A stretch of 64,000 nucleotides of DNA from a virus (IMGVR_UViG_3300046656_000199:4-64003), one strand, 5' to 3'. Positions 1 through 64,000 are shown, numbered from the stretch's first letter. A program made the numbers and translations. The notes: a model not told the origin generated them from the letters alone.

Positions 1-1
1 C

Positions 2-475
2 TCGGCCAAATCGCAACGGGAATCCGCCAAGCGCCAGAAGGTCACGGCCTTCTGCGAGGCGATGGCCAAGCCCAACGCTCGCGGCGAGGTTCACGTCCTG
101 CCGCGCGACCTGCTCGCCGACAACCCGGCCAACGTCATCGACCATCTCATGAGTCTTGACGACGGCGACGATCTGACCAAGGTCAGGAAGTTCAAGGAGG
201 GTGGCAAGGAGATCGCCGCGACCCAACTCGACATCGCAATGCGGCGCATCAGCGGTGGCCAGCCGTTCAAAATCGGCGAGAAGTTCCGCGACCCGAAGAC
301 GGGTGCGACCGTGGCGGACGATGAGGCCGAGCGCGTTCGCAGTCATGCCGAGGCCAACCGCGACGCCTACGCCAAGGCCGGCAAGACTCCCGAGCAGGTC
401 GTTGAGAAGTTCTCCGAACTGCGCAAGAAGCATCCGAGCCTGACGGCTGCTCAGTACGGCGTGCCCGCTGCCTGA
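2..475 (+). CDS. C-terminal (scaffold) part of the Mu-like protease/scaffold polyprotein starting at 60440
   Basis: Frame open from base 2 (SAKSQRESAKRQKVTAFCEAMAK...); in frame with 60440-64000 if the terminal CTCG is an overlap; helical charged sequence with AFCE and KFSE motifs; directly upstream of head genes. Confidence 0.8.
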   Translation, partial: SAKSQRESAKRQKVTAFCEAMAKPNARGEVHVLPRDLLADNPANVIDHLMSLDDGDDLTKVRKFKEGGKEIAATQLDIAMRRISGGQPFKIGEKFRDPKTGATVADDEAERVRSHAEANRDAYAKAGKTPEQVVEKFSELRKKHPSLTAAQYGVPAA

Positions 476-4462: not shown

Positions 4463-5110
4463 ATGGGCCTGAACCTGACTCTGTACGCCAATGTCCGCCA
4501 GACCGCGCCGGAAACGTACTCCTCCGGACAGTCGCAGGTGGACCAGAACCCCCGCGGTGATCTGTGCATCTCGCCAGCCCTGCTCCCCAAGACGGAGCTA
4601 ACCCGTCTGGCGAACACATGGTACACAATGATCCCCACCGGTAGCGCGTTCACGAACGTCGCCGGTATGCCGACGACTCGCGCCGAACTGGCGATCTACA
4701 ACGGTTACGTCGACACGACATGCCTGGTCATTGACCAGATCTGGTTCACGTCGCTGACCTCGATCACCGCTGCGGCCAACATCACGATTATCTATCAGGT
4801 GGCGCAGGTCACAGCGCTGACCGATGCCACCACCATCCTCATCAGCAGTCCGCTCGGCAAGGTCTATTCTGGCTCCGTGACGCGGGCCGTGGCCGTCACC
4901 ACGATGACCGCGAACAAATGGGCACTGGTCGGTGCCGGCACGAGCGGTGGCGCCTCGGCGTCCATCGGTTCGGGTGCCGTGGCCGAGATGGGCGGCGGCG
5001 TCATCGTCAAGGCTGGATTTACGCTCGGCGTGAATGCGGTTGTGGGCACGGCTGCCGGTACGAGTCTCATGGGTATCTCGTGGCACGAGGTCAAACTTCC
5101 GGCGGCCTGA
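4463..5110 (+). CDS. Putative virion protein, paralog B
   Basis: GAGGA RBS; tandem paralog of 3748-4407. Confidence 0.75.
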   Translation: MGLNLTLYANVRQTAPETYSSGQSQVDQNPRGDLCISPALLPKTELTRLANTWYTMIPTGSAFTNVAGMPTTRAELAIYNGYVDTTCLVIDQIWFTSLTSITAAANITIIYQVAQVTALTDATTILISSPLGKVYSGSVTRAVAVTTMTANKWALVGAGTSGGASASIGSGAVAEMGGGVIVKAGFTLGVNAVVGTAAGTSLMGISWHEVKLPAA

Positions 5111-5196: not shown

Positions 5197-6114
5197 GTGG
5201 AAGCGATCACCAGCCGCAAATCGTCCCGTCATCTGCTGGCCGCCCGGCAGCGCCACCTCGAAGCCCTGCACCAGCGCGTCCGGGCCGTCGTCACCGAAAA
5301 CTATCCCGGCTTTCGCGGTCGCGGCGACGGCTGTCGACTGGAGATCCGCCGTGGCGACCGGATCGAGAAGCGTCTGCGCTGCGGCCCCAACGAGGTTCAC
5401 GCCGCCATCTTCCGCAATGATGGCTCGTGGGAAGACCTGGGCGTCAATCACAACCTGCTGACGAACATCGGCCGCGACTGGTGGAGTTCGCAGTGGGGTT
5501 TCATCCCCACTGGCATCACGACGGCCAGCCCGTCCACGGCCGTATCCTCGTCGTCCATCACGACGACCGCTACGCCGCTGACCGCCTCCAACCTGGCCTC
5601 GCCGCAACTCGGCGTTGCCGGTCTGCGCGTCTACGCCGCCCCGCACACGACCACCAATCCCGTCACCTACGGGAACATCGTCAGCAACACCACGAGCGTC
5701 ATCACCATCGACAAGTGGTGGACTGCGGCCGATGGCACGGGCACGACGCCGACCTCCGGCGACGGCTTCATCATCGCCCCCGGTGGTATGGCCGCGCTGC
5801 GATTTGTGGCGCTGAGCACGAACGCCAGCGCTGCCAGTGCGTCCGATCTGACACTCGCCAACGAGGTGACGAGCAACGGCGGCGCCCGCGTGCTGGCTCT
5901 CTATGCTCACACGTTCGGGACATCGTCGCTGACGCTCTCGAACACGTTCAGCATCGCGGGCACCATCACGGCCATCCACAAGGCCGGTCTGTTCGCCGCT
6001 CTCACCAGTGGCGGCGCCGATCTGATGGGATACGAGACAGTTTTGAATGCCGACGCCACGGTCGTGAGCGGCGACAGTCTTGCACTCACGTGGACGGTGA
6101 ATCCGTCAGGCTGA
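5197..6114 (+). CDS. Putative tail/collar-type structural protein
   Basis: GAGG + GTG start chosen (uncertain); NLLTNIG...FVALST...LANEV...AGLF...GDSLALTWTV pattern seen in phage fibre/collar proteins. Confidence 0.55.
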   Translation: MEAITSRKSSRHLLAARQRHLEALHQRVRAVVTENYPGFRGRGDGCRLEIRRGDRIEKRLRCGPNEVHAAIFRNDGSWEDLGVNHNLLTNIGRDWWSSQWGFIPTGITTASPSTAVSSSSITTTATPLTASNLASPQLGVAGLRVYAAPHTTTNPVTYGNIVSNTTSVITIDKWWTAADGTGTTPTSGDGFIIAPGGMAALRFVALSTNASAASASDLTLANEVTSNGGARVLALYAHTFGTSSLTLSNTFSIAGTITAIHKAGLFAALTSGGADLMGYETVLNADATVVSGDSLALTWTVNPSG

Positions 6115-54281: not shown

Positions 54282-54644
54282 ATGGCGCACGGTGGCAAGA
54301 GGAACGGAGCCGGACGAAAACCAAGTTCCGCCACGAAGAAGACGCGGGTGGTCGCTGACAAGATCGCCACCGACGGTATCACACCGCTGGAGGTGATGAT
54401 TGACGCCATGCGCAAGCACTACGATGGTGAGGAGTGGGACGCGGCCGCGGCCATTGCCAAGGATGCGGCGCCTTACGTTCACCCCAAACTGTCGGCCGTT
54501 GATTTCAAAGGGACTGTGACCAGCCGCCATGAACTCGACCTCTCGAAACTCACGGACGACCAGCTCGCCACCCTCGCCGCCATCGTTGCCCTCGCCGACC
54601 CTGGTGGAGATCGAGGTGGAGCAGTGCCGGCGCTCCCTGGCTAG
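54282..54644 (+). CDS. Terminase small subunit
   Basis: GGKRNGAGRK, TPLEVM, AKDAAPYVHPKLS; overlaps large subunit. Confidence 0.75.
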   Translation: MAHGGKRNGAGRKPSSATKKTRVVADKIATDGITPLEVMIDAMRKHYDGEEWDAAAAIAKDAAPYVHPKLSAVDFKGTVTSRHELDLSKLTDDQLATLAAIVALADPGGDRGGAVPALPG

Positions 54645-56091
54645 GTTCGTGCGCTCGGCCTGGCACGTTATCGAACCGACAACGCCGCTGGTGTGGGGCT
54701 GGCATCTGGACGCGATCTGCGAGCATCTGGAGGCCATCAGCAGTCGGCGCCTGCGCGGTCTGCTCATCGAGGTGCCACCCCGTTCGTCGAAGTCGACGAT
54801 TGTCTCAGTTCTGTGGCCGGCGTGGGAATGGGCCTGTCGTCCCCAGACGAGACTTCTGACTGCGTCCTACGCGCTGAACCTCGCCATTCGCGACGCCCTG
54901 CGCTCGCGGCGGGTGATCGAGTCGCCGTGGTATCGCCAGCGCTGGGGTGGCCTGTTCACCCTGTCGGGCGATCAGAACGTCAAGTCGCGCTATGAGAACG
55001 ACCGAACTGGATACCGCATTGCCATCTCGGTCGATTCGGCCACTACGGGCGAGGGTGGCGATATCACGCTCATCGACGATCCGCACAACGTCGTTGAGGC
55101 CGAATCGGACGCTACGCGACAGGCAACCCTGCGCTGGCACGACGAGGCGTTCTACAACCGTCTCAACGATGCCAAGACCGGGGCGCGCATCATCATCGGC
55201 CAGCGTGTCCACACGGGCGACCTGATCGGCCACCTGCTGCCAAGCAACGAGTTTGAGGAGCTGCGCATCCCCGAGGAGTTCGAGGCATCCCAGCGCTGCG
55301 CGACGGCGATGGGATGGTCCGACCCGCGCCAGAACGATGGCGATCTGCTCCGTCCCGAGCGATTCGGTCCTGTCGAGGTTGCCAAGGCGAAGTCACGTCT
55401 CGGCGCCTACGGCTACGCCTCGCAGTACCAGCAGCGTCCCGTGCCTCGTGCCGGCGGCCTGTTCAAGCGTGAGTGGTTCCGCAGCGTGGAGAGCATCGCC
55501 GGTTCCGTCGCGGCCCGCGTGCGCTTCTGGGATCTGGCCGCGTCTAAAACGGGGGACTACACAGTCGGCGCCCTGATCGCGCGCACGTCGGAGAACAGGT
55601 TTTACATCGAACATGTCGTGCGCGGTCGCTGGTCGCCGCGCGAACGCGACGCCGTCCTGCTCCAGACGGCCCGGCAGGACGGTTGCGAGGTTCGCATCTG
55701 GATCGAGCAGGAGCCAGGCAGCGCCGGGCTGAGCCTCGTCGATTCACTGGTGCGTCTGCTCATCGGTTTCCCCGTCCAGGGAGAACGGCCGACCGGCGAC
55801 AAGATCGTGCGGGCATCGCCGCTGTCGTCGCAATTCGAGGTCGGCAACGTGCTGCTCGTGGCGGGCGAATGGAACAAGGACTTCGTCGATGAGTTCTGCC
55901 TGTTCCCGACCGGCCCCCATGACGATCAGGTCGACGCCGCCGCTGGAGCGTTCAACAAGGCGGCCGCGCTGTTCGGCGGCGACTGGACCTACAACCCGCA
56001 TCCCGACTCGCTGAGCCTCGTCGAGAAAGCCCCCGCCGGGGTATTTCTTCCGGACGTGGGCGGGGATATGTACGCACCGAGGGATGACTAA
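54529..56091 (+). CDS. Terminase large subunit
   Basis: PPRSSKS Walker A, LIDDPH Walker B, QYQQRP, FWDLAA, HDDQVDA. Confidence 0.93.
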   Translation: MNSTSRNSRTTSSPPSPPSLPSPTLVEIEVEQCRRSLARFVRSAWHVIEPTTPLVWGWHLDAICEHLEAISSRRLRGLLIEVPPRSSKSTIVSVLWPAWEWACRPQTRLLTASYALNLAIRDALRSRRVIESPWYRQRWGGLFTLSGDQNVKSRYENDRTGYRIAISVDSATTGEGGDITLIDDPHNVVEAESDATRQATLRWHDEAFYNRLNDAKTGARIIIGQRVHTGDLIGHLLPSNEFEELRIPEEFEASQRCATAMGWSDPRQNDGDLLRPERFGPVEVAKAKSRLGAYGYASQYQQRPVPRAGGLFKREWFRSVESIAGSVAARVRFWDLAASKTGDYTVGALIARTSENRFYIEHVVRGRWSPRERDAVLLQTARQDGCEVRIWIEQEPGSAGLSLVDSLVRLLIGFPVQGERPTGDKIVRASPLSSQFEVGNVLLVAGEWNKDFVDEFCLFPTGPHDDQVDAAAGAFNKAAALFGGDWTYNPHPDSLSLVEKAPAGVFLPDVGGDMYAPRDD

Positions 56092-56133: not shown

Positions 56134-57624
56134 ATGGCGCCGGCTCCCTCACCACCGTTCCGCTACCGTGTCGCAGGAGACTCGTTCCCCGGCTCGGCCC
56201 CTGCCGCCGGCAACGTCGCCCTGCCGTCGCTCGGCCATGCTCAGCATGTGCAGGACATGGAGCGGCAGGAGGACCGCTACGGCGAGCAGATCCGCAGCGG
56301 GCCGTCGATCAAGCTGCCCGCCTTCCTGCCCTACTTCGACGATCAGACCGGCGAGACGCAGCAGGCACGCCTCGCCTACCGGCGGATGATCGCCGACCCC
56401 AATTGCAAGGCCGCCCTCCTCGGCCAGATCCTCGACGTGGCCGCCCTGGATCTGCAAGTCAACCCCGCCGACAAGAAGAACGAACGCGATCAGGAGGTTG
56501 CCAAGTTCGTCAAGTGGAACCTCTTCCAGCGCCTCGGCGGGGGCGTCCCCGAGCTGTGCTGGTCCATCCTCAGCGGTGGTTGCATCGACGGCTTCTCCGT
56601 GTGCGAGAAGGTGCTCGCCCAGGAGGAGCGCGGCCGCTACAAGGGCAAGTTGGTGATCGACCGCCTGAAGGCCAAGGATGTGTTGAACGATATCGTGCTG
56701 GAGCAGGATGAGTACCGCAACATCGTCGGTATCCGTGGTCTTCGCTGGAACGCGGGCGCGTATTTCGACCCGAACGATTTCTTGATCTACCGGCACCTGC
56801 CGCTGTACGAATCGCCGACGGGCATGTCCGCGTACCGGGCCGTGTACTCCCGCTACTGGATGCTCGACACGATCCTGAAGCTCCGCGCCCGCATGCTGGA
56901 GACGAAGACCATCCCGATTGTGTGGGGCACCTACCAGACCCCGAGTCAGCAGACCGCTCTCGAATCCATGCTGGCCAACCTCAAGAGCCGCAATTGGGTC
57001 AGCGTCCCCGAGGGTGTGCAGATCGATGTACTGAGCCTCGCCGGGGCTGCCGACGATGTGTTCCAGAAGGCCATCGACTCGCTCAAGCATGACATCTTCC
57101 TCGGCGTGCAGTTCGCCACCCTCCAGAGTCTCGAAGGCATCACGCACGACGCCGCGGGCAACTCGCAGGTGCATCGCTCGACGGCGGACCTCGGCGTGTG
57201 GTATCTGGCCGCGACCGTGACCGCCCTGCTCAACGACCGCCAGCATGGACTCATCAAGGGACTGGTCGACCTGAACTACGTCGTCGAGGAGTATCCGCAG
57301 GCCACCCTGTCCGCCGCTGACGTCAACGAACTGGCGCAGGAGTGGCAGATCGACCAGGGCTTGCACGGTGCCGGCGTGGATCTGTCGAAGGAGGAGTTGT
57401 ACGAGCGCTACAATCGCCGCCCGCCCATCGACGAAGGCGACCGGCTGGCAGGGCAGAGCGGCGCGTCTCCAACTGGAGACAAGGGCCAGCAGCCCGGTGG
57501 CGGTCTGCCGTTCGCCGACGTGGACGCGACCACGACAGTGAACGGCAAGGAGGAGGTGCAGGCTCCGGCCGCGCCCTTTCGCGGATTCTCCGAAAGCGGA
57601 TGGGCTGCCTACCTCAACGGCTGA
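56134..57624 (+). CDS. Portal protein (Mu gp29/DUF935-like)
   Basis: Follows terminase; GFSVCEKV, VPEGVQIDVL, GNSQVH, LVDLNY motifs. Confidence 0.85.
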   Translation: MAPAPSPPFRYRVAGDSFPGSAPAAGNVALPSLGHAQHVQDMERQEDRYGEQIRSGPSIKLPAFLPYFDDQTGETQQARLAYRRMIADPNCKAALLGQILDVAALDLQVNPADKKNERDQEVAKFVKWNLFQRLGGGVPELCWSILSGGCIDGFSVCEKVLAQEERGRYKGKLVIDRLKAKDVLNDIVLEQDEYRNIVGIRGLRWNAGAYFDPNDFLIYRHLPLYESPTGMSAYRAVYSRYWMLDTILKLRARMLETKTIPIVWGTYQTPSQQTALESMLANLKSRNWVSVPEGVQIDVLSLAGAADDVFQKAIDSLKHDIFLGVQFATLQSLEGITHDAAGNSQVHRSTADLGVWYLAATVTALLNDRQHGLIKGLVDLNYVVEEYPQATLSAADVNELAQEWQIDQGLHGAGVDLSKEELYERYNRRPPIDEGDRLAGQSGASPTGDKGQQPGGGLPFADVDATTTVNGKEEVQAPAAPFRGFSESGWAAYLNG

Positions 57625-57625
57625 C

Positions 57626-58957
57626 GTGGCTCCGGCGGGACCGGACGGCGCGAAGATCGCCGAACTACTCCGCACGTCGCTGCGCGTCGGCACGGCCACG
57701 CTCGGCGAACTGACGGGCGCGGCGGTCAAGCGATTGCTGGAGAAGGGCAACGCGGGCAAGGCGAAGCGGCTGTTCGACGATGCGGAGCGAAAGCAATTAG
57801 CTCGTTTAATCGGGGCCACCAATGCGGCGGGCGAATTGTTGGGCCGTTCGCGGGTTCGTCTCCGCATGGAGAAGGTGCAAAAGCACGACGAGCAGTTCAG
57901 CGTCTTCGACGATGCCAGCCCCATTCATCCCATGGCGCCGATCGAGGCTCTCAGTTACTTCAAGAGGCTGGTGCCAACGCTCAACCTTGATCCGCAGGAC
58001 TTTGCCACCGACATCGGCCAAAGTGCCTTCACCATTGCGGGTATCACCGAGGAGTCGTTGCTCGAACGTATTCAGGAGATCATCGCGAACGCGCTGGCGA
58101 CGGGAGGCGACAAGGCTGTCGTTCCGAGCGTTGACGAGATTCTCAACGAGGCCGGTCTGAGTCCCCGCAATCCGCAGCGGGCAGAAATGATCGTGCGAAC
58201 GAACATGATGAAAGCCGTTTCGGAAGGCGTCACTCGCGAGATGCAAGACCCCGATGTCGCCGACTACTTCCCGGCCTGGATGTACAGCGGAGTTCGTGAC
58301 GGTCGACAGGGCAAGGACCACGAACAGCACTTCGACAAGTATTTCCCGAACAGCGTCACGTTCGACGAGGTGCGCGGGCCGCGCGTGTTCAACTGCCGCT
58401 GCGTGCAAATTCCCATCGACAAGCACACCTGGGCCGACCTGCAAGCGCGGGGCACGCGATTCGCGTCGTTCGCCGAGGCGCCCGTCCCCGCCGTCGAGCA
58501 GAATCGCCCGTGGACGTGTGGCCCTGCCGCCCTCGTCGCCGTGCTGAGCCGCTACGATCGCACCGTGGACGAGGCCGATGTCAGCCGCACGCTGGGCACG
58601 ACGGAGGAAGCCGGCACGTCACCCGAGCAGATGGAAGCCGGGGCGCGCTCGCTCGGTCTCGACGTGGAGGCGTTGCACGGCATGACCACGCCGCAACTGG
58701 AGCGGGCCATCATCATGGGTCAACCGGTGATCGCCTGCGTCCAGATGCACGGGGACGCGGCAGCAATGGCCGACGAGGAAGCAGGGCACTGGATAATCTT
58801 CACAGGTAGGCATCGCGGTACGCTCGACTGCATGGATCCGGCCACGGGTGAGACGGCGGAGATCGCGAAGGCCGACCTGCCACGGGTGTGGCGCGACCGG
58901 GACGCGGAGGGGATGCCGTTCAGGAGATACGGGTTGGTGGTGAGGGGCACGTCATGA
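57626..58957 (+). CDS. MuF minor head protein fused to a C39-like cysteine peptidase
   Basis: AFTIAG, IVRTN, MYSGVRDGR...H, FNCRC (MuF); Q-x4-TCGPAAL, GTS, GHWI, DPATG (C39 triad). Confidence 0.85.
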   Translation: MAPAGPDGAKIAELLRTSLRVGTATLGELTGAAVKRLLEKGNAGKAKRLFDDAERKQLARLIGATNAAGELLGRSRVRLRMEKVQKHDEQFSVFDDASPIHPMAPIEALSYFKRLVPTLNLDPQDFATDIGQSAFTIAGITEESLLERIQEIIANALATGGDKAVVPSVDEILNEAGLSPRNPQRAEMIVRTNMMKAVSEGVTREMQDPDVADYFPAWMYSGVRDGRQGKDHEQHFDKYFPNSVTFDEVRGPRVFNCRCVQIPIDKHTWADLQARGTRFASFAEAPVPAVEQNRPWTCGPAALVAVLSRYDRTVDEADVSRTLGTTEEAGTSPEQMEAGARSLGLDVEALHGMTTPQLERAIIMGQPVIACVQMHGDAAAMADEEAGHWIIFTGRHRGTLDCMDPATGETAEIAKADLPRVWRDRDAEGMPFRRYGLVVRGTS

Positions 58958-59871
58958 ACAAGCCGCAGGCACGCGCCGTCATGATGAGCGAGGGCTGGAC
59001 TGCCTACCTCGAACGCTTCTGCGGCGGGGCGGGTAGCAAACGCCCCGGCCCGTGTCCCAAGGGCGTACACAATGCCCACATCGCCAGCGGGGCGCGGCTG
59101 AACGCCGCCAAACACAATCTCGGCAGAGCGCAGGCACGCCACGAGCAGCACGGCACCGAGGCGACGAGCCTCGCCCTGTCGCGTGCTCGCTTGCTGCACA
59201 CGGCTCAGCAGCGGGCGCACGCCGTGGCCACGAAGCAGGCGCAGGCAGCCGGGGCGAAGCCGCCCATCGCCGCGGGGCATCTGCCGAAGGCGAAGCGGGC
59301 GAGCCGGGCACTGCTGACGCCGGAGAAGCGGAAGGAGATCCGGGCGAAGTTGGCGGCAACAAATCTGAATAAAAAGACAAATGATAGTAAAACAGACTTG
59401 ACTACTACTGCGAAGAATGATACGATACCTCCGGTGGCAACGAAACCCGAACCGGAGGCGAAGAAAGTGGAAACCACAAAGATCGGTCTTGAACCGGCGG
59501 CACGATCCAAGGACGCCAATCAATGGCTGAATGACATGGAACTTCCGGCTGGTGTCCTGCAAACGAAGCCGACAAATCTGATCGGCGAACGTATCCATCT
59601 GGACGACGGCAGTTCGTTCGTCATCGCTCCCGATGGGGCGGTCTGGAAGTTCTGGCCGGGGGCTGGCCCGAAGGATGAACAGGTCGTCGATATGGACGGG
59701 GTAAAGGGTCGCGCCGTCCGATCAGAGTCGACCGATGGGCACCGCAACCACCTCCGCGAACTGGCGTCGAAGGCACCGAAGCCGCCGAAGCAGAAACCGG
59801 CAAAGGGCAACTCAGGCTACCGTGGCAATGCTCACCCGGAGTCGATCCCTGGCATGGGAAAGGATGACTGA
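58954..59871 (+). CDS. Protein with N-terminal GW..Y.E.FC..RPGPCP tag and unknown C-terminal domain
   Basis: ATGA coupling to MuF; tag shared with the 60440 polyprotein. Confidence 0.75.
   Translation: MNKPQARAVMMSEGWTAYLERFCGGAGSKRPGPCPKGVHNAHIASGARLNAAKHNLGRAQARHEQHGTEATSLALSRARLLHTAQQRAHAVATKQAQAAGAKPPIAAGHLPKAKRASRALLTPEKRKEIRAKLAATNLNKKTNDSKTDLTTTAKNDTIPPVATKPEPEAKKVETTKIGLEPAARSKDANQWLNDMELPAGVLQTKPTNLIGERIHLDDGSSFVIAPDGAVWKFWPGAGPKDEQVVDMDGVKGRAVRSESTDGHRNHLRELASKAPKPPKQKPAKGNSGYRGNAHPESIPGMGKDD
59398..59426 (+). promoter_or_regulatory. Sigma70 promoter embedded in coding sequence
   Basis: TTGACT-N17-TACGAT with extended -10 TG and A-rich upstream element; downstream GGAGG + in-frame GTG at 59467. 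Confidence 0.65.
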
Positions 59872-60145
59872 AATGGACGCCTTTCTCCTCGCCATGCTCG
59901 ACGCTCCCGATGATGCGACGCCGCGATGTGTGCTGACCGACTGGTTGGAAGAGCGCGACCAGTCCGACCTCGCCCGATGCTTGCGCAGCAATTGCGATCT
60001 CATCGTTGAGCCGCGCGGCCGCGGCGTGTTCGTCGGCTTCGCTTTCCCTGATGGTGCCGAGCAAGACGTTCGGCACTGTCCCGGCTATGCGGAGCTGACG
60101 GCGCAACTGGCCCATCTGGAAATGAGGCGCCGCCTTGCCGCCTAA
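59864..60145 (+). CDS. TIGR02996-like domain protein
   Basis: AFLLAMLDAPDDATPR.V.TDWLEER. Confidence 0.75.
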   Translation: MTEMDAFLLAMLDAPDDATPRCVLTDWLEERDQSDLARCLRSNCDLIVEPRGRGVFVGFAFPDGAEQDVRHCPGYAELTAQLAHLEMRRRLAA

Positions 60146-60347
60146 ACGATCCTTCGCCTCTGCCCTTCGCGCCGTCCTGAACGCAGAGGGCATCAGCGTC
60201 TATGAACTGGCTCAGCGCTGCGGCGTGTCGCGTCAACTGCTCGGCTCGTACCTCAATGACGGCGCCGCCCCATCCTTCGCCAACGTGCTGAAGATCGCCG
60301 AAGCACTCGGCGTGACGGCGAACGATCTGGCCTATCGGCCGGAATGA
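60135..60347 (+). CDS. XRE-family HTH protein
   Basis: GISVYELAQRCGVSRQ.L..Y.N...PSF..VLKIAEALGV. Confidence 0.85.
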   Translation: MPPKRSFASALRAVLNAEGISVYELAQRCGVSRQLLGSYLNDGAAPSFANVLKIAEALGVTANDLAYRPE

Positions 60348-60439: not shown

Positions 60440-63400
60440 ATGCCACTCGACACGGGGACAAGCCGGGACGCTGTAAGCAGCAACATCCGCACAGAAGTTG
60501 CTGCGGGAAAGCCGCAGAAGCAAGCGGTGGCAATCGCCCTGTCGAAAGCGGGGCTGTCCAAGGCCGCCGAACGCCGCGCTTACCTGATGGAGCACGGGTG
60601 GGGCAAGTACGTCGAGAAATTCTGCCAGGAAGGGACAAACAAGGGCAAGCCTGGCCCGTGTCCGAAAACAGGTGGAGCAACGCCAGGAAAACCGGCTGAC
60701 AGTGCAACCAGGCCGGCAGCGAAGAAAACCGCCGCCCGCCGCAAGCCGAAGGCCACGCCGGATAGCGTTCACGCCTCGATCGCACACGTCCTGTCCAATC
60801 CGAGCGCGATCACGCCCGAGGCAACGACGTCGGTTGTGTCGGACCTGTCCTCGCTCACCATTCCGCAGATGAAAGACATTCATGCGCGTCTTGGAGGCGT
60901 CGGCAAGTTGACGGGCAAAAAGGCGGAACTGGCCCAGAAGATCGCAGATGCGGCTATCACTTCCGTCAAGGCTGGATCGAAGACGTCGGCAGCGCCCGAG
61001 TCAGTTGCTGATACACGAAAACGACTCGGCTATGATACGGGTACGCCGCCAGCCTCAACGTCATCGACATCAACCCGCACTGTTAAGCGTGGCGGCGAAC
61101 CGCCGCAAACTGCGGGAGGATTCTCGCTCGACTCGTCGCGGGGCTTTCTCTTCAACACGATGACGTCTCTCCTCAAGGGCTTTGACGAACATCCTAACGA
61201 GGTCGAGGGGCGCGAAGCCATCATTCACGCCGCTCTGCAACTCGCGGCGATGGGCGACGCAGGCAAACCGGCGCTCGACGTGCTGGCGCAGGTACTCCAG
61301 CGGCAACCCGAACAGAACGTCGATCAGCATTGCGAACCGGGAACGCCGCAAGCAAAACCGGGGCCGTGTGCAACGTCGGGACAGGCCATTGAGAGCATCG
61401 CCGCCAAATTCCCCGGCAGCGAGAGCATGGGCAAGGACGAAGTAGTCATACCAAACGGTGACGGCCGATACATCTCTCTTGAATCGTCCCAGAAATATGG
61501 CGGACCAGCGAATGGCGTGCACATTGGTTTCTTTCAAGAAACCCCCGGAGGCGATCAGGACTTCGACAAAAACAACAAGAAACTTCAGCCCGGCACCATT
61601 GACCTGATGCGCAAACTATCCGGTGTTCTCGGCGAACTGGAAACGGCAAAGACGCCGGCGTCCTACAAGGCCGAGCCGAAGCGAGCCGCTTTGTACGAGA
61701 AGATTTTCCGCCGTCGTGGTTGGACGCTAACGACATCCAAACGCGGCAACGATAAGACGTTCGCCGTCTGGCAACCACCTGCTTATCCATCGTCCCACGC
61801 TGAACGCAGCGCCTACATGATGGAGCACGGCTGGGGCAAGTACGTCGAGCGGTACTGCGACCACGGGCCGAACGCTCACAAGCCGGGACCGTGCCCGGAC
61901 GAGGGTGGGGGATCTTTCGAGACAGTCCCCGGCGGACACAAGGGCACCGAGAGAGCGAATACTGCAACAAGGGCAGCGGTGGAAGCCAGTGCCAAAGCGA
62001 ACGCTTCTGGATCTGCCGCCGATCACCGGATGGCTGCCAGGCGCCATCGGGCGGCACAGGAAGCCCACTGGAAAGAAGGCGACGAAGCCGGCGTCCATTA
62101 CACGAAGACGATGGGGCGCAAGGATCCCGAGACGGTAGCCCTGGCTGCCGATCTTCTTCGCCGCACGAACGCCCACGACGCATTGCACAAAGCACATCAG
62201 AACGCCTACGAGACGCACAAGGCGGCGATGCGTGCCGCACTGAAAAGCGAAGGTGGCCAGCACGCCGAACAACGCTACTGCGACCACGGGCCGAACGAGC
62301 ACAAGCCGGGGCCGTGCCCGGATGAGGGGAGCGGATCGACGCCGACTCCGACGCCGGCCGCAACCTCTGCCACGCCTGCCGCTGGCCCGAAGGAGTTACC
62401 GAAGGGGACGCTTTTCGAGCATTCCAAGAACGCTGTCGACCAGCAGCACCAGAATATGTCGGTACTGCTGGCCAAGATGGTCAAGGGCGAGTACGTCCCC
62501 GAAGACGTCGTCAGCGACGCCAAACACTACACGAACAACGCACTCGCTCGCAATGACAAGGGCTGGAACGGACGCTTTAGCGCCTACGCCGCCAACGCCA
62601 AACACTACTTCCCGCCCGAGGCATTTCAATCCGAGGAGTGGGGCAAGGTCAAGCAGGCGTTTCGCGATGCCCGCGACGCCAACGCTCAGCACATCAGCGA
62701 TCTCGGCGAACACGTCGCCCATCTCGGCGAGTATGCCCAGAAGAGCGGCAATACCAAGATCAAGCAGAACAGCGATGACGCGCAGTTTCTCGGACGTGAA
62801 AAAACGGCAGCCTACGCCACCGCCGTGAAGGAACAGGAGAAAATCTACGCCGCCCTGAACGCACTCGAAAAGAAGTTTCCACGCAGCAAGCCAACCGGTC
62901 GGCACCTGTACGCCGAACGCTTCTCCGAAGGCAGCAGCCAACTCCGCGATGTCGAGGTCTTCCCCGAGGGCACCCACCGCGGCAAGCCATATTCCCTCGC
63001 CGACCTGCACGACATGGCCATCAACTTCAACCGCTACTCGGCGGGCAAAAAGCCGTGGGTGCGCGTGCCTGCCGTGCTCGGTCATGAGGAGACGCAGGAA
63101 TATCTCGAGCGCTCCGACCTGCCCGCCGCGGCCTGGGGCGCGAAAGCCTACGTTGGCAAGGGCACCGATCCCGACGGCAAGCCGATCAATGTCCTCAAGA
63201 TGAATTTCACGGACGTGCCGCAGAAGGTGGCGAGGCTCATCAAGGGCCGCCGCTACCGTACCGTTTCCGCCGAAGTCTACGACGACATCCCCGAGGGTCT
63301 ACCAGGCGCCGGCACAAAAACGAAGATGCTTCGGCGCGTGGCATTTCTGGGCGGCGACATTCCGCAATGCAAGTCGATCGACGAATTGCCCATGCCCGAA

Positions 63401-64000
63401 CCGCACAGCGAATTTGACTCGAAATATACGGTCGTGGTTTCCTCGCTCGTGCCATCAACGGCAGCGCAGTTCAGCGAGCCGCGCAGCGTGCAGGGGGCGA
63501 CGTGGTGCTTTTCCGAGCAAAAGGCGAGATCAATGAACCGCGACGAAATGATTCAGCAGCTCGGCGACCTGGGCGTTGACACGAGTGTTTGCACGCCGGA
63601 GATGCCGGACCCCGCGATTGCCGAATGGCTGCGGTCGCTGACGGACGAGGGCGAGACGCCGGCCGAAGAGACGCCCGCCGAACCGAAGCCCGGCGACACG
63701 AACAACCTCGACGATATGCCGCCCGAAGAGCCGACGCCCGGCAGCGCTGCCCCGGCCTACGACGAGGACGCCAAGCCCGAAGACCCCGAGAAGATGGGTG
63801 AGTGGGCCAAGCGGATGCACGACAAATATTGCTCGCAAGACAACGCCCGGCCGATGGCTGACGCCCCGGCCCCTGGGAGTCCCACCATGCCGACCGCGCC
63901 GAAGAAGATCACCACGACGGAGCACTACAGCGAACTGAAGAAGAAGGCCGACGCCGCTCTTGCTTCGCTGACTGCGGCGACCAAGGCTGCGGAGGACTCG
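60440..64000 (+). CDS. Giant modular head protein: tagged N-terminal modules + Mu-like prohead protease + scaffold (runs off the window end, continues at 5-475)
   Basis: Hand translation shows no stop in 1187 codons; protease domain ~62942-63400 (VEVFPEGTH, PAVLGH, PAAAW, YRTVSAEVY, LRRVAFLGGDIP); possible internal scaffold start ATG 63533. Confidence 0.85.
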   Translation, partial: MPLDTGTSRDAVSSNIRTEVAAGKPQKQAVAIALSKAGLSKAAERRAYLMEHGWGKYVEKFCQEGTNKGKPGPCPKTGGATPGKPADSATRPAAKKTAARRKPKATPDSVHASIAHVLSNPSAITPEATTSVVSDLSSLTIPQMKDIHARLGGVGKLTGKKAELAQKIADAAITSVKAGSKTSAAPESVADTRKRLGYDTGTPPASTSSTSTRTVKRGGEPPQTAGGFSLDSSRGFLFNTMTSLLKGFDEHPNEVEGREAIIHAALQLAAMGDAGKPALDVLAQVLQRQPEQNVDQHCEPGTPQAKPGPCATSGQAIESIAAKFPGSESMGKDEVVIPNGDGRYISLESSQKYGGPANGVHIGFFQETPGGDQDFDKNNKKLQPGTIDLMRKLSGVLGELETAKTPASYKAEPKRAALYEKIFRRRGWTLTTSKRGNDKTFAVWQPPAYPSSHAERSAYMMEHGWGKYVERYCDHGPNAHKPGPCPDEGGGSFETVPGGHKGTERANTATRAAVEASAKANASGSAADHRMAARRHRAAQEAHWKEGDEAGVHYTKTMGRKDPETVALAADLLRRTNAHDALHKAHQNAYETHKAAMRAALKSEGGQHAEQRYCDHGPNEHKPGPCPDEGSGSTPTPTPAATSATPAAGPKELPKGTLFEHSKNAVDQQHQNMSVLLAKMVKGEYVPEDVVSDAKHYTNNALARNDKGWNGRFSAYAANAKHYFPPEAFQSEEWGKVKQAFRDARDANAQHISDLGEHVAHLGEYAQKSGNTKIKQNSDDAQFLGREKTAAYATAVKEQEKIYAALNALEKKFPRSKPTGRHLYAERFSEGSSQLRDVEVFPEGTHRGKPYSLADLHDMAINFNRYSAGKKPWVRVPAVLGHEETQEYLERSDLPAAAWGAKAYVGKGTDPDGKPINVLKMNFTDVPQKVARLIKGRRYRTVSAEVYDDIPEGLPGAGTKTKMLRRVAFLGGDIPQCKSIDELPMPEPHSEFDSKYTVVVSSLVPSTAAQFSEPRSVQGATWCFSEQKARSMNRDEMIQQLGDLGVDTSVCTPEMPDPAIAEWLRSLTDEGETPAEETPAEPKPGDTNNLDDMPPEEPTPGSAAPAYDEDAKPEDPEKMGEWAKRMHDKYCSQDNARPMADAPAPGSPTMPTAPKKITTTEHYSELKKKADAALASLTAATKAAEDS

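What the first reader, a model, noticed from the sequence alone, without database searches (positions are those of the whole stretch)
60440..64000. Giant protease polyprotein with repeated PGPC tags: candidate capsid cargo-loading system
Seen: about 830 aa precede the Mu-like protease, divided into unrelated modules each opened by a Cys-pair tag: EHGWGKYVEKFCQEGTNKGKPGPCP (~60590), QHCEPGTPQAKPGPCA (~61325), EHGWGKYVERYCDHGPNAHKPGPCP (~61823), QRYCDHGPNEHKPGPCP (~62270). The same tag starts the 58954 gene (SEGWTAYLERFCGGAGSKRPGPCP) and the portal ends FSESGWAAYLNG. [FYH]-[SAC]-E motifs recur at boundaries (HAE twice, YAERFSE just before the protease, HSE, FSE, YSE, FCE in the scaffold, FAE in MuF). 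Known: Mu-type proteases are fused to scaffolds and process head proteins. Inference: the protease cuts at these motifs to free several tagged effector proteins inside the head for delivery on infection, with tag DNA acting as recombination points for module exchange. The ORF track misses this gene entirely.
Basis: partly seen in the sequence, partly recalled or inferred. Interest (0 to 1): 0.85.

Follow-up and report, generated by a model that had tools for sequence, protein, structure and literature searches.

The report
Phage head cargo polyprotein with two-cysteine tags
A phage gene fuses a string of unrelated protein modules, each opened by the same short two-cysteine tag, to the enzyme and scaffold that build the virus head; the same tag marks add-on modules on other head proteins in many phages, so it looks like a portable joint for loading passenger proteins into capsids.

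Summary
A 1343-aa gene (window 60440-64000, continuing at 5-475 because the record is circularly permuted) has four unrelated N-terminal modules. Each is opened by a [FY]-C-x9-11-(K/R)PGPC-P tag. Then come a prohead serine protease core, an acidic linker and a scaffold domain. The gene at 58954 starts with the same tag, and the portal ends in a half-tag.

The protease is not a sequence member of the Mu gpI family. It matches PHROG 976 and the fold of prohead proteases, and sits between MuF and a Mu-type major head gene.

A tag profile finds only 72 cluster representatives among 1.84 billion proteins. Half of them carry a portal, MuF or this protease. The tag lies between such a carrier and variable modules (ADP-ribosyltransferase, topoisomerase IB, 2H, Nudix). 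The same modules recur behind tags on different carriers, and in viral contigs the tag follows portals of three further Pfam families.

[FYHW][SAC]E is enriched 5.5-fold in the variable regions. It flanks modules and the protease core and is absent from the shell proteins.

Best reading: a polyvalent head-cargo polyprotein cut after Glu by its own protease. What the cysteine loop does is unresolved, and cleavage and packaging are inferred.

The parts
60440..64000 (+). Polyprotein gene, first 1187 codons (N-terminal modules, tags, protease core, acidic linker, start of scaffold)
   Evidence: Open frame to the window end; identical to P0006 residues 1-1187
5..475 (+). Polyprotein gene, last 156 codons plus stop (scaffold C-terminal domain); the record is circularly permuted
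   Evidence: Translation equals the C-terminus of P0006; 4-nt end overlap; scaffold HMM match at window 2-457
60440..60568 (+). N-terminal small module N0 (phrog_2423, function unknown)
   Evidence: PHROG hit 4.3e-16 on residues 4-47 of P0001; the same module heads P0033, P0043 and the L004 polyprotein
60569..60679 (+). Tag 1 (EHGWGKYVEKFCQEGTNKGKPGPCP)
   Evidence: (59 bits)
60680..61276 (+). Module A; part resembles a short helical segment shared with P0010, P0037 and P0104
   Evidence: BLAST within the collected set; no Pfam hit
61277..61387 (+). Tag 2 (QHCEPGTPQAKPGPCA), the most divergent copy
   Evidence: 41 bits
61388..61801 (+). Module B, an orphan; ends in HAE (nt 61796)
   Evidence: No homologue of 75-242 aa; Atlas score 0.89, a lead only
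61802..61912 (+). Tag 3 (EHGWGKYVERYCDHGPNAHKPGPCP); DNA mosaic of tag 1 (first half) and tag 4 (second half)
   Evidence: 32/34 nt identical to tag 1 and 50/56 nt identical to tag 4
61913..62224 (+). Module C, an orphan rich in His and Ala
   Evidence: No hit in the collected set or in Pfam
62225..62335 (+). Tag 4 (HAEQRYCDHGPNEHKPGPCP), with HAE five residues before the first Cys
62336..62905 (+). Module D; one relative, placed right behind a tag in the carrier-less protein P0071
   Evidence: BLAST 1.8e-11; Atlas gave no usable hit
62906..63439 (+). Prohead serine protease core, preceded by YAERFSE; invariant His at 63083-63085 and Ser at 63266-63268
   Evidence: phrog_976 head maturation protease 2.9e-16; AF2 model with core pLDDT > 90; 45 BFVD fold hits at E <= 0.001, many named prohead or maturation protease; invariant H and S in 27 sequences
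63872..63889 (+). GGGAG followed 7 nt later by an in-frame ATG (Met-Pro conserved in relatives): possible nested start for a separate scaffold protein, as in Mu gene Z
   Evidence: Sequence; P1151 nearly invariant in A5; Mu Z annotation. The start itself is inferred
58954..59871 (+). Stand-alone tagged gene (305 aa; tag at 58966-59073); its start overlaps the MuF-C39 stop
   Evidence: it is the cluster representative P0075
57626..58957 (+). MuF fused to a C39-type cysteine peptidase; FAE lies at the junction (nt 58469-58477)
   Evidence: Pfam Phage_Mu_F, Peptidase_C39 and C39_2; invariant Gln, Cys, His, Asp; fold closest to ComA, LahT150 and PCAT1, also to PeiR
56134..57624 (+). Mu-type portal; its last 12 residues (57586-57621, FSESGWAAYLNG) are a half-tag without the cysteine loop
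   Evidence: Portal_Mu 3.5e-40; similar portal ends in L014, L016 and P0067
1934..2902 (+). Mu gpT-type major head protein, with no [FYHW][SAC]E motif
   Evidence: PF10124 2e-24; phrog_371; motif scan

Best explanation
The gene encodes a head-interior 'polyvalent' cargo polyprotein. Its C-terminal half is a prohead serine protease followed by an acidic linker and a scaffold domain. This half should take the whole chain into the procapsid, as protease-scaffold fusions do in Mu-like heads. Its N-terminal 820 residues are four unrelated passenger modules plus a small N-terminal module.

Each module starts with a conserved junction cassette: an amphipathic stretch that usually contains hydrophobic-x-Glu (often [FYH]-[SA]-E), then [FY]-Cys, a 9-11 residue Gly/Asn/Lys loop, and KPGP-Cys-Pro.

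After assembly the protease most likely cuts after Glu at these motifs and at the conserved FSE, HSE and YSE sites around its own core and in the scaffold. This would free the modules, each keeping the cysteine loop at its new N-terminus, so that they stay in the head and leave with the DNA. The scaffold would be degraded.

The cassette is a portable joint. The same cassette links cargo to portals, to MuF and to the protease, and heads small stand-alone proteins such as the 58954 gene. Recombination within it shuffles modules between carriers.

Shown: the anatomy, the conservation and head-carrier association of the tag, module sharing, and motif enrichment and placement. Inferred: cleavage, packaging, ejection, and the function of the cysteine loop. 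My guess for the loop is a metal- or disulfide-stabilised cap or handle on each cargo unit rather than a protease site.
For: Anatomy.

Protease:
- phrog_976 at 2.9e-16.
- Confident AF2 core.
- 45 BFVD fold hits at E <= 0.001, including named prohead or maturation proteases.
- Invariant His and Ser in 27 sequences.

Mu-type neighbours: portal, MuF and gpT.

Tag:
- Invariant C, G, G, C in 22 copies.
- Logo from 135 distinct copies: F/Y before Cys1 in 115, Pro after Cys2 in 119, Glu at -7..-2 in 105.
- Only 72 representatives with E <= 0.001 among 1.84 billion proteins.
- Of those 72, 17 carry this protease, 7 a Mu portal, 9 MuF (3 with C39), 2 portal plus MuF, 1 C39 only, and 36 no carrier (19 of them < 350 aa, 2 look like low-complexity false hits).
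- A DNA pattern scan gave 70 loci, of which I judged 11 to hold tag cassettes. These lie behind lambda-type (L057, L077, L092) and PF04860 (L069) portals, in DUF2213 (L025) and Nudix-MuF (L027) proteins, and in two small ORFs beside a PF06381 portal whose own C-terminal extension has a degenerate copy (L060).

Cargo:
- Relatives carry ADP-ribosyltransferase, topoisomerase IB, 2H and Nudix domains.
- Module clusters span carriers, for example 11 proteins (4 protease, 5 MuF, 1 portal, 1 none) and 10 proteins (4, 3, 1, 2).

Motif:
- 195 [FYHW][SAC]E in 35,788 variable residues against 35.1 +/- 5.8 in 500 shuffles, maximum 60.
- 12 in this 1343-aa protein against 13 in about 14,440 aa of the other putative genes. 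I summed that from the listing. Two of those 13 lie at the portal tail and the MuF-C39 junction.
- None in the major head protein or its two neighbours.
- The five copies flanking the protease core fall at or within 2 residues of the low-pLDDT segments of the model (1-13, 174-195, 204-211).
- F1024/E1026 and E1165 are nearly invariant.

Precedent: prohead proteases that cut after Glu, and T4's 10-residue capsid targeting sequence (PMC9026906, PMC10052503, passages read); polyvalent proteins with a C-terminal assemblin-like peptidase (PMC5512222, section 8 read).
Against: - There are no protein-level data: no virion proteome and no cleavage map.
- None of the window's own modules has a recognisable function.
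- Only 51 of 135 tags have a strict [FYHW][SAC]E within 14 residues upstream, and 82 of 135 have hydrophobic-x-E within 10. Tag 1 and the 58954 gene have only LME/YVE and MSE/YLE.
- The enrichment counts include homologous modules, so they are not independent events.
- The tag also occurs in phages with three further portal families in viral contigs, whose protease was not examined. A site specific to this protease family therefore cannot be its general role.
- Foldseek found no solved structure like the protease core.
- The protease is not in the Mu gpI family.
Confidence: 0.55

Rival explanations
1. The tag is the substrate site of the C39-type cysteine peptidase fused to MuF. The upstream half mimics a double-glycine leader (Glu -8, Leu -7, aromatic -4, Gly-Gly), and the peptidase cuts after C-G-G to release modules. 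The prohead protease only degrades the scaffold.
For: The MuF C-terminal domain passes both Pfam C39 models. It keeps Gln, Cys, His and Asp in 6 of 6 sequences. Its model is closest to double-glycine peptidases: ComA, LahT150 with leader peptide, and PCAT1 (TM 0.6-0.7). Relative to a cut after C-G-G, the tag logo puts E at -8, L/V at -7 and F/Y at -4. The leader consensus itself is recalled, not from a call. In relatives, tags and modules are inserted exactly between MuF and the C39 domain.
Against: Only 48 of 135 distinct tags have the short loops of 9-10 residues that begin C-G-G. 85 of 135 have the long form (C-Q-E-G, C-D-H-G) with no Gly-Gly after the Cys, and these include all four tags of this gene. 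Tags occur without a detectable C39 domain in L004, L016 and L092. C39-bearing proteins carry both tag forms. The domain is equally close to the phage lytic endoisopeptidase PeiR by sequence (9.8e-6) and fold, so it may itself be a wall-cutting cargo.
Confidence: 0.13
2. The cysteine loop is a capsid-loading or retention tag in its own right, comparable to the T4 capsid targeting sequence or an encapsulin cargo peptide. It binds a head-interior receptor or other tags (for example through shared metal or disulfides). This is how carrier-less tagged proteins such as the 58954 product enter the head.
For: The tag is the only element shared by 36 of 72 representatives that lack any carrier domain. 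The window's stand-alone tagged gene sits inside the head module. Several small proteins begin with about 10 residues ending in FAE just before the loop, like the 10-residue T4 signal (PMC9026906, passage read). The loop works with four portal families, so it is carrier-independent.
Against: No partner is known. Internal tags on chains already fused to scaffold, portal or MuF need no targeting. Many carrier-less hits are short and may be fragments of larger fusions (19 of 36 are under 350 aa). Nothing like the loop is in the PDB by sequence.
Confidence: 0.22
3. The chain is not cut into free effectors. The N-terminal modules stay attached as an enlarged scaffold or inner-core protein that organises the head interior, and the tags are merely conserved flexible hinges kept by descent.
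For: The window's modules are orphans, partly low-complexity and helical, with no enzymatic signature. The tags are followed by basic Pro/Ala/Lys-rich stretches.
Against: Hinges do not normally keep invariant Cys, Gly and Pro over very divergent phages. Relatives place clear enzymes behind the same tags. The Glu motifs concentrate at module edges.
Confidence: 0.08

Closest known systems
Polyvalent proteins of phages (Iyer, Burroughs, Anand, de Souza, Aravind 2017, PMC5512222; also PMC9503650)
   Same: Many unrelated domains sit in one polypeptide encoded among virion genes. Fusions to MuF, to the portal and to a capsid-processing (assemblin-like) serine peptidase at the C-terminal end are described. 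Cargo includes ADP-ribosyltransferase, 2H, Nudix and zincin-type domains, with predicted packaging, processing and injection (sections and passages read).
   Different: A conserved two-cysteine junction cassette is not mentioned. The words 'cysteine' and 'linker' do not occur in the main text of PMC5512222. Supplementary files could not be seen and might show it in alignments. Here the peptidase is followed by a scaffold domain. The window's own modules match no known effector family.
T4 internal proteins with the capsid targeting sequence, cut by gp21
   Same: A short N-terminal peptide ends in hydrophobic-x-Glu and is removed by the prohead protease. The cargo behind a constant signal is variable and fast-evolving, is packaged in the head and is delivered on infection (PMC9026906, passages read).
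   Different: In T4 the cargo genes are separate, the signal is about 10 residues and it has no cysteines. Here the cassettes are mostly internal to polyproteins fused to head carriers and carry a conserved Cys loop. No homology was tested because the signals are too short.
phiKZ / SPN3US head maturation (gp175, gp245)
   Same: Many head-interior and ejection proteins are processed after Glu at a three-residue motif (S/A-X-E, A-X-E). Redundant sites occur in propeptides, and the protease cuts its own C-terminal part (PMC9026906, PMC10052503, passages read).
   Different: The small residue is at P3 there and at P2 here ([FYH]-[SA]-E). Those proteases are T4 gp21 relatives, and no fusion of cargo to the protease is described in the passages read.
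Phage Mu gene I / Z (protease with nested scaffold) and Mu head module
   Same: The gene order is portal, MuF, protease-scaffold, gpT-type major head protein. The protease is N-terminal to the scaffold in one frame. A possible internal start for the scaffold exists.
   Different: There is no sequence relationship to Mu gpI (hhalign probability 0.12; PHROG 976 against 328; no Pfam hit). Mu I has no 820-residue N-terminal extension (361 aa).
MuF polymorphic toxins of temperate phages (Jamet et al. 2017, PMC5576092)
   Same: A MuF head domain next to the portal gene is fused to variable C-terminal toxin or effector domains (passages read).
   Different: That paper describes a single C-terminal toxin per MuF. 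It has no 'motif', 'linker', 'cleav' or 'cysteine' words in the main text. Here there are several modules per chain, three kinds of carrier and a shared cassette.

Membership tests
Mu gpI-type prohead protease (InterPro IPR012106 as named in the Mu record; PHROG 328) | Sequence match to the family model or to Mu gpI itself | tested here: not met
   No Pfam family for the whole ORF, for the C-terminal 367 aa at E <= 10, or for any of 27 family members. hhalign of the 27-sequence profile against Mu gpI gave probability 0.12. Mu gpI is phrog_328 (1.5e-115), whereas this core is phrog_976.
Mu gpI-type prohead protease (InterPro IPR012106 as named in the Mu record; PHROG 328) | Position between MuF and the gpT-type major head gene, with scaffold in the same frame | tested here: met
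   Portal_Mu and Phage_Mu_F lie upstream, Mu-like_gpT downstream. The scaffold HMM matches the same ORF. A possible nested start exists.
Prohead (capsid maturation) serine protease, HK97 / assemblin-like | Fold resembling known or predicted prohead proteases | tested here: met
   BFVD: 45 hits at E <= 0.001, top 4.5e-11. The named ones include capsid maturation protease, prohead serine protease, prohead scaffold and peptidase, and HK97-family protease. In the PDB Foldseek found nothing at E <= 0.001, and a profile search of PDB sequences found nothing.
Prohead (capsid maturation) serine protease, HK97 / assemblin-like | Conserved His and Ser catalytic pair | tested here: inconclusive
   His (GHEE) and Ser (VSAEVYD) are invariant in 27 of 27 sequences. 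Their geometry in the model could not be inspected and activity was not tested.
Polyvalent proteins (Iyer et al. 2017) | Several unrelated domains in one virion-module polypeptide with a head-packaging domain | tested here: met
   Five N-terminal modules have no mutual similarity and are fused to protease-scaffold within the head gene cluster.
Polyvalent proteins (Iyer et al. 2017) | Recognisable conflict or effector domains among the modules | tested here: not met
   For the window's own protein there is no Pfam hit, the Atlas gave leads only or nothing, and module B has no homologues. The feature is met in relatives: ADPrib_exo_Tox, Topoisom_I and 2H, NUDIX.
T4-type capsid targeting sequence | Short peptide sufficient for head incorporation and removed after hydrophobic-x-Glu | not testable with these tools
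   Only the sequence pattern can be seen: hydrophobic-x-E within 10 residues upstream in 82 of 135 tags. Some small proteins start with about 10 residues ending in FAE.
C39 double-glycine peptidase with leader-type substrate | C39 fold with Gln/Cys/His/Asp | tested here: met
   Pfam C39_2 (40.5 bits against cut-off 24) and C39 (35.9 against 22). Q18, C24, H114 and D130 are invariant. Fold hits to ComA, LahT150 and PCAT1.
C39 double-glycine peptidase with leader-type substrate | Substrate with Gly-Gly at the cut, and co-occurrence of substrate and peptidase | tested here: not met
   85 of 135 tags lack Gly-Gly after the Cys. Tags occur without C39 in L004, L016 and L092.

The most novel reading that the evidence does not exclude
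The two-cysteine cassette is a universal, carrier-independent capsid cargo tag. Any protein placed behind it is taken into the head, trimmed and delivered with the DNA. It would work with at least four portal families, with MuF and with protease-scaffolds, and on stand-alone proteins. Phages would swap cargo by recombining within the cassette. That would make it a natural plug-in system for protein delivery, comparable to the T4 targeting sequence but portable across tailed phages.
Probability: 0.2. Interest if true: 0.85.

Novelty: new variant of a known kind. Interest (0 to 1): 0.62.

Why it matters
How tailed phages choose and load passenger proteins is known in detail only for T4 and a few others. 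Here a short, sharply conserved cassette marks the start of cargo units on three kinds of head carrier and across several portal families. This gives a sequence handle for finding head-delivered proteins in uncultured phages. Many of these are orphans that may be anti-defence or take-over factors. It also offers a testable candidate for engineering protein packaging into capsids. The paired Glu motif gives a predicted cleavage map that one proteomics experiment could confirm.

Tried and rejected
- Complex prediction with the major head protein, protease-scaffold (residues 823-1343 with alignment) and tag 1 (with alignment) as partner gave 'no answer', score 0.00 in both runs, and the controls were not run. 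It says nothing either way.
- Close-relative searches with the whole ORF found nothing in viral contigs or in GenBank phages by tblastn.
- Genome contigs gave only 2 loci. One of them, a Fimbriiglobus MAG, has the protease but no PGPC tag.
- Foldseek against the PDB gave nothing for the protease core. The PDB profile searches with the core and with the tag gave nothing.
- Module B and D look-ups led nowhere.
Of its 70 loci only 26 hold the peptide in frame. By eye, 12 of these are an unrelated family of about 350 aa and 3 are odd short ORFs.
- I considered self-cleavage at the X-Cys bond. I set it aside because a 15-residue loop between variable domains has no fold to catalyse it.
- I considered a single-tag zinc site. 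I set it aside because most tags have only two ligands.
- The script machine gave no answer four times. The analysis was repeated.

Full report
WHAT IS THERE

The window is bases 4-64003 of a 64,003-base viral record. On the + strand near its end lie the following genes:
- a large terminase (54529-56091);
- a Mu-type portal (56134-57624; Portal_Mu 3.5e-40);
- MuF fused to a C39-type peptidase (57626-58957);
- a 305-codon gene (58954-59871);
- two small inserted genes: a TIGR02996 domain protein and an HTH protein;
- a frame open from 60431/60440 to the last base of the window.

That frame is not cut off by a fragmentary contig. Window 2-475 encodes the rest of the protein, and the two ends overlap by four bases. 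A 1343-aa protein from another contig is 100% identical and reads across the junction. The record is therefore circularly permuted, and the gene is 60440-64000 joined to 5-475. This, together with the open 3' end, explains why an ORF list missed it.

Downstream, at the window start, lie a virion structural protein (phrog_1731), a 190-aa ORF and a Mu gpT-type major head protein (PF10124, 2e-24).

THE TAGS ARE REAL

A six-frame scan finds C-x11-C with KPGPC four times in the big gene and C-x10-C with RPGPC once at the start of the 58954 gene. The only other C-x(4-14)-PGPC in 64 kb lacks the Lys and lies in an unrelated frame. The portal ends FSESGWAAYLNG, which is the upstream half of the window's own tags (GW..Y[LV]) without the cysteine loop.

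The tags divide the N-terminal 822 residues into a 43-residue module (phrog_2423) and four modules of 104-199 residues. The modules show no similarity to one another.

THE PROTEASE

- No Pfam model matches the ORF, its C-terminal third (even at E <= 10) or any of 27 relatives.
- Taken alone, the core matches PHROG 976, 'head maturation protease' (2.9e-16).
- Mu gpI belongs to PHROG 328, and a profile of 27 relatives does not align to it (probability 0.12).
- An AlphaFold model built on 27 sequences is confident over the core (blocks > 90).
- Foldseek finds nothing like it in the PDB. It finds 45 predicted viral structures at E <= 0.001, and the named ones are mostly capsid maturation or prohead serine proteases and protease-scaffold fusions.
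- One His (GHEE, nt 63083) and one Ser (VSAEVYD, nt 63266) are invariant.

So this is a prohead serine protease of a family of its own. It sits in the place and has the architecture of Mu I/Z: protease, acidic linker, scaffold. A GGGAG lies 7 nt before a conserved in-frame Met-Pro at 63887. This could be a nested scaffold start like Mu Z (inferred).

THE TAG IN OTHER PROTEINS

Thirty proteins share the protease-scaffold part. Their N-terminal parts differ, and many carry the tag.

I aligned 22 tags (C, G, G, C invariant) and searched with the profile.
- The word-indexed search gave 51 proteins.
- The exhaustive search of 1.84 billion cluster representatives gave 72 with E <= 0.001. The element is therefore rare.
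- With local HMMs for the carriers, those 72 comprise 17 with this protease, 7 with a Mu portal, 9 with MuF (3 also with C39), 2 with portal plus MuF, 1 with C39 only and 36 with none.
- Of the 36 with no carrier, 19 are under 350 aa and 2 look like low-complexity false hits.
- Nine of the larger carrier-less proteins were scanned with Pfam. Two have topoisomerase IB, one has a 2H phosphoesterase and six have nothing.

The tag always lies at a junction: after the portal, between MuF and C39 or ahead of MuF, before the protease or between protease and scaffold, or at the start of a small protein.

A degenerate DNA pattern for G-K-P-G-P-C-P matched 70 viral loci, and 26 of them hold the peptide in frame. 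By inspection, 11 of these are tag cassettes, 12 belong to an unrelated family of about 350 aa and 3 are odd ORFs.

The 11 include cassettes in the following settings:
- behind lambda-family portals (L057, L077, L092);
- behind a PF04860 portal (L069);
- in a DUF2213 protein (L025);
- in a Nudix-MuF fusion (L027);
- at the start of two small ORFs lying between the terminase and a PF06381 portal (L060). That portal's own C-terminal extension also carries a degenerate copy.

The cassette is thus not tied to Mu-like heads or to this protease family.

THE MODULES BEHIND IT

I cut 206 inter-element segments out of the collected proteins. I dropped P0002-P0005, which are the window's own proteins or duplicates, and the two false hits. 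I then clustered the segments by BLAST. Several clusters span carriers:
- one of 11 proteins (4 protease, 5 MuF, 1 portal, 1 none);
- one of 10 proteins (4 protease, 3 MuF, 1 portal, 2 none);
- an ADP-ribosyltransferase cluster (1 protease, 3 portal).

For the window's own modules:
- D has one relative, right behind a tag in a carrier-less protein;
- A shares a short segment with three proteins;
- B and C have none.

The Atlas and a dedicated homologue search added nothing. 'Effector' is therefore justified for relatives, not for this gene's modules.

THE GLU MOTIF

In 35,788 residues outside the carrier domains, [FYHW][SAC]E occurs 195 times against 35.1 +/- 5.8 in 500 shuffles (maximum 60). 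Homologous modules inflate this count.

Within the window, the polyprotein has 12 copies in 1343 residues. The other putative genes have 13 in about 14,440 residues, a figure I summed. Two of those 13 lie at the portal tail and at the MuF-C39 junction. The major head protein and its neighbours have none.

In the polyprotein the motif ends modules B and C (HAE 453, HAE 608). It precedes the protease (YAERFSE), follows it three times (HSE, FSE, FSE), opens the scaffold (YSE) and recurs within it. The five copies around the core fall at or within 2 residues of the model's low-confidence segments. Several are nearly invariant across 27 sequences.

Among 135 distinct tags, 105 have Glu 2-7 residues before the first Cys. 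82 have hydrophobic-x-E within 10 residues, and 51 have the strict motif within 14. Tags at the very N-terminus of a protein can start directly at [KR]-F-C. This fits an upstream half that is needed only where something has to be cut off.

HOW IT PROBABLY WORKS

T4 gp21, phiKZ gp175 and SPN3US gp245 all cut head-interior proteins after Glu in a three-residue motif, with redundant sites and self-trimming. T4 loads variable internal proteins through a 10-residue N-terminal signal that is then removed (PMC9026906 and PMC10052503, passages read).

Fusions of effectors to MuF, portal and an assemblin-like peptidase are described as polyvalent proteins that are packaged and injected (PMC5512222, section 8 and passages; PMC9503650, passages).

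By these analogies the chain enters the procapsid through its scaffold end and is cut after Glu at module edges, and the freed modules travel with the DNA.

What the cysteine loop does is open. Its independence of carrier and protease family argues against a site for this protease. The C39 domain is a tempting partner, because its fold is closest to double-glycine peptidases and the short-loop tags read like a Gly-Gly leader. However, 85 of 135 tags, including all four here, lack Gly-Gly. Tags also occur without C39, and the domain is as close to the lytic endoisopeptidase PeiR. A loading or retention role remains possible and is the most interesting reading.

RECOMBINATION

At the DNA level, tag 3 matches tag 1 over its first half (32 of 34 nt, against 18 of 34 with tag 4). 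It matches tag 4 over its second half (50 of 56 nt, against 33 of 56 with tag 1). The flanks are unrelated. Together with module sharing across carriers, this fits exchange within the cassette, but it is a single case.

NOVELTY

The literal motifs are not in the searched library. 'KPGPCP' gave 0 papers. In the search with four strings, the top-ranked papers each held only one string, 'pgpcp', apparently as nucleotide notation. A paper holding the peptide would have held two strings and ranked first. The two key papers do not contain 'cysteine' or 'linker', but their supplements could not be read.

I file this as a new variant of a known kind. It is a polyvalent head-cargo protein, with a previously undescribed conserved junction cassette and a paired Glu motif.

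Noticed in passing
window 1-4 and 63997-64000: The record's two ends overlap ('ctcg') and a single gene reads across them, so the 'linear, 67% complete' record behaves as a circularly permuted or circular sequence.
   Followed up: yes
window 63872-63889: GGGAG lies 7 nt before an in-frame ATG, and the Met-Pro is conserved in relatives just ahead of the scaffold domain. This is a possible nested scaffold gene like Mu Z inside I.
   Followed up: partly
window 57586-57621; L014 about 4490-4529; L016 about 5780-5883; P0067 C-terminus: Portal ORFs end in a conserved W-x-x-Y-[LIV] tail (SGWAAYLNG, EWQGYLTGRR, ERWAGYIARR, EEWERYVNG). In L016 the cysteine loop follows at once in another frame, at the head of the MuF ORF. 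In P0064 and P0094, portal, tag and MuF are one ORF. This may be a frameshift-dependent or recently split portal-MuF fusion.
   Followed up: partly
L003 1442-8791: A Fimbriiglobus MAG prophage with the same protease family has no PGPC tag. It has a 2449-aa giant ORF that, by eye, contains an N6-adenine methyltransferase-like NPPF motif and helicase-like motifs (DarB-like; my reading, not tested). A different motif, EAF.W.DW...W.SPGGRVLSD, is repeated three times, each near an SE site. This is possibly another lineage's module-opening tag.
   Followed up: no
L062 7991-9043 and 11 further viral loci (L034, L042, L049, L051, L055, L061, L064, L073, L075, L079, L088): A conserved protein of about 350 aa, encoded directly upstream of a large portal-sized ORF in L062 (the only one of the 12 loci whose neighbours were looked at), contains RWYYRELWPSKVCYEW.QGILHGKPGPCPQD, that is, a longer Cys...GKPGPCP loop inside another protein that sits beside that ORF. 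No Pfam or PHROG hit.
   Followed up: partly
window 59735-60347: Two small genes are inserted between the tagged gene and the polyprotein: a TIGR02996 domain protein (35.9 bits, cut-off 29.05) and an HTH_3 protein. As I recall, TIGR02996 is typical of Gemmata-type planctomycetes, which suggests the host. One of the two genome hits is a Fimbriiglobus MAG.
   Followed up: partly
P0034; P0016, P0019, P0025, L002 2413-4764, L004 8225-11632: There are variants of the protease core. In P0034 its two halves appear in swapped order, as in a circular permutation. Several members have a CxxCxGxG zinc-ribbon insertion (one reaches Pfam DnaJ_CXXCXGXG at 0.0062).
   Followed up: no
P0012, P0013, P0027, P0031 N-termini; window 60440-60568: Two alternative small N-terminal modules head these polyproteins: MPL..G.S...VS.NI...GKP.KQAVAIALS (phrog_2423) and MPI..C..NGK.G.RWG..GKCY.G...A..QA.A..ANGYEGH. 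Both are of unknown function.
   Followed up: no
L060 6282-7341: In a lower-GC phage, two small ORFs between the terminase and a PF06381 portal both begin MA.FV.VE.VG..NG.P.LNCGGKGGKPGPCP. The portal itself carries a degenerate tag before a C-terminal P-loop module.
   Followed up: partly
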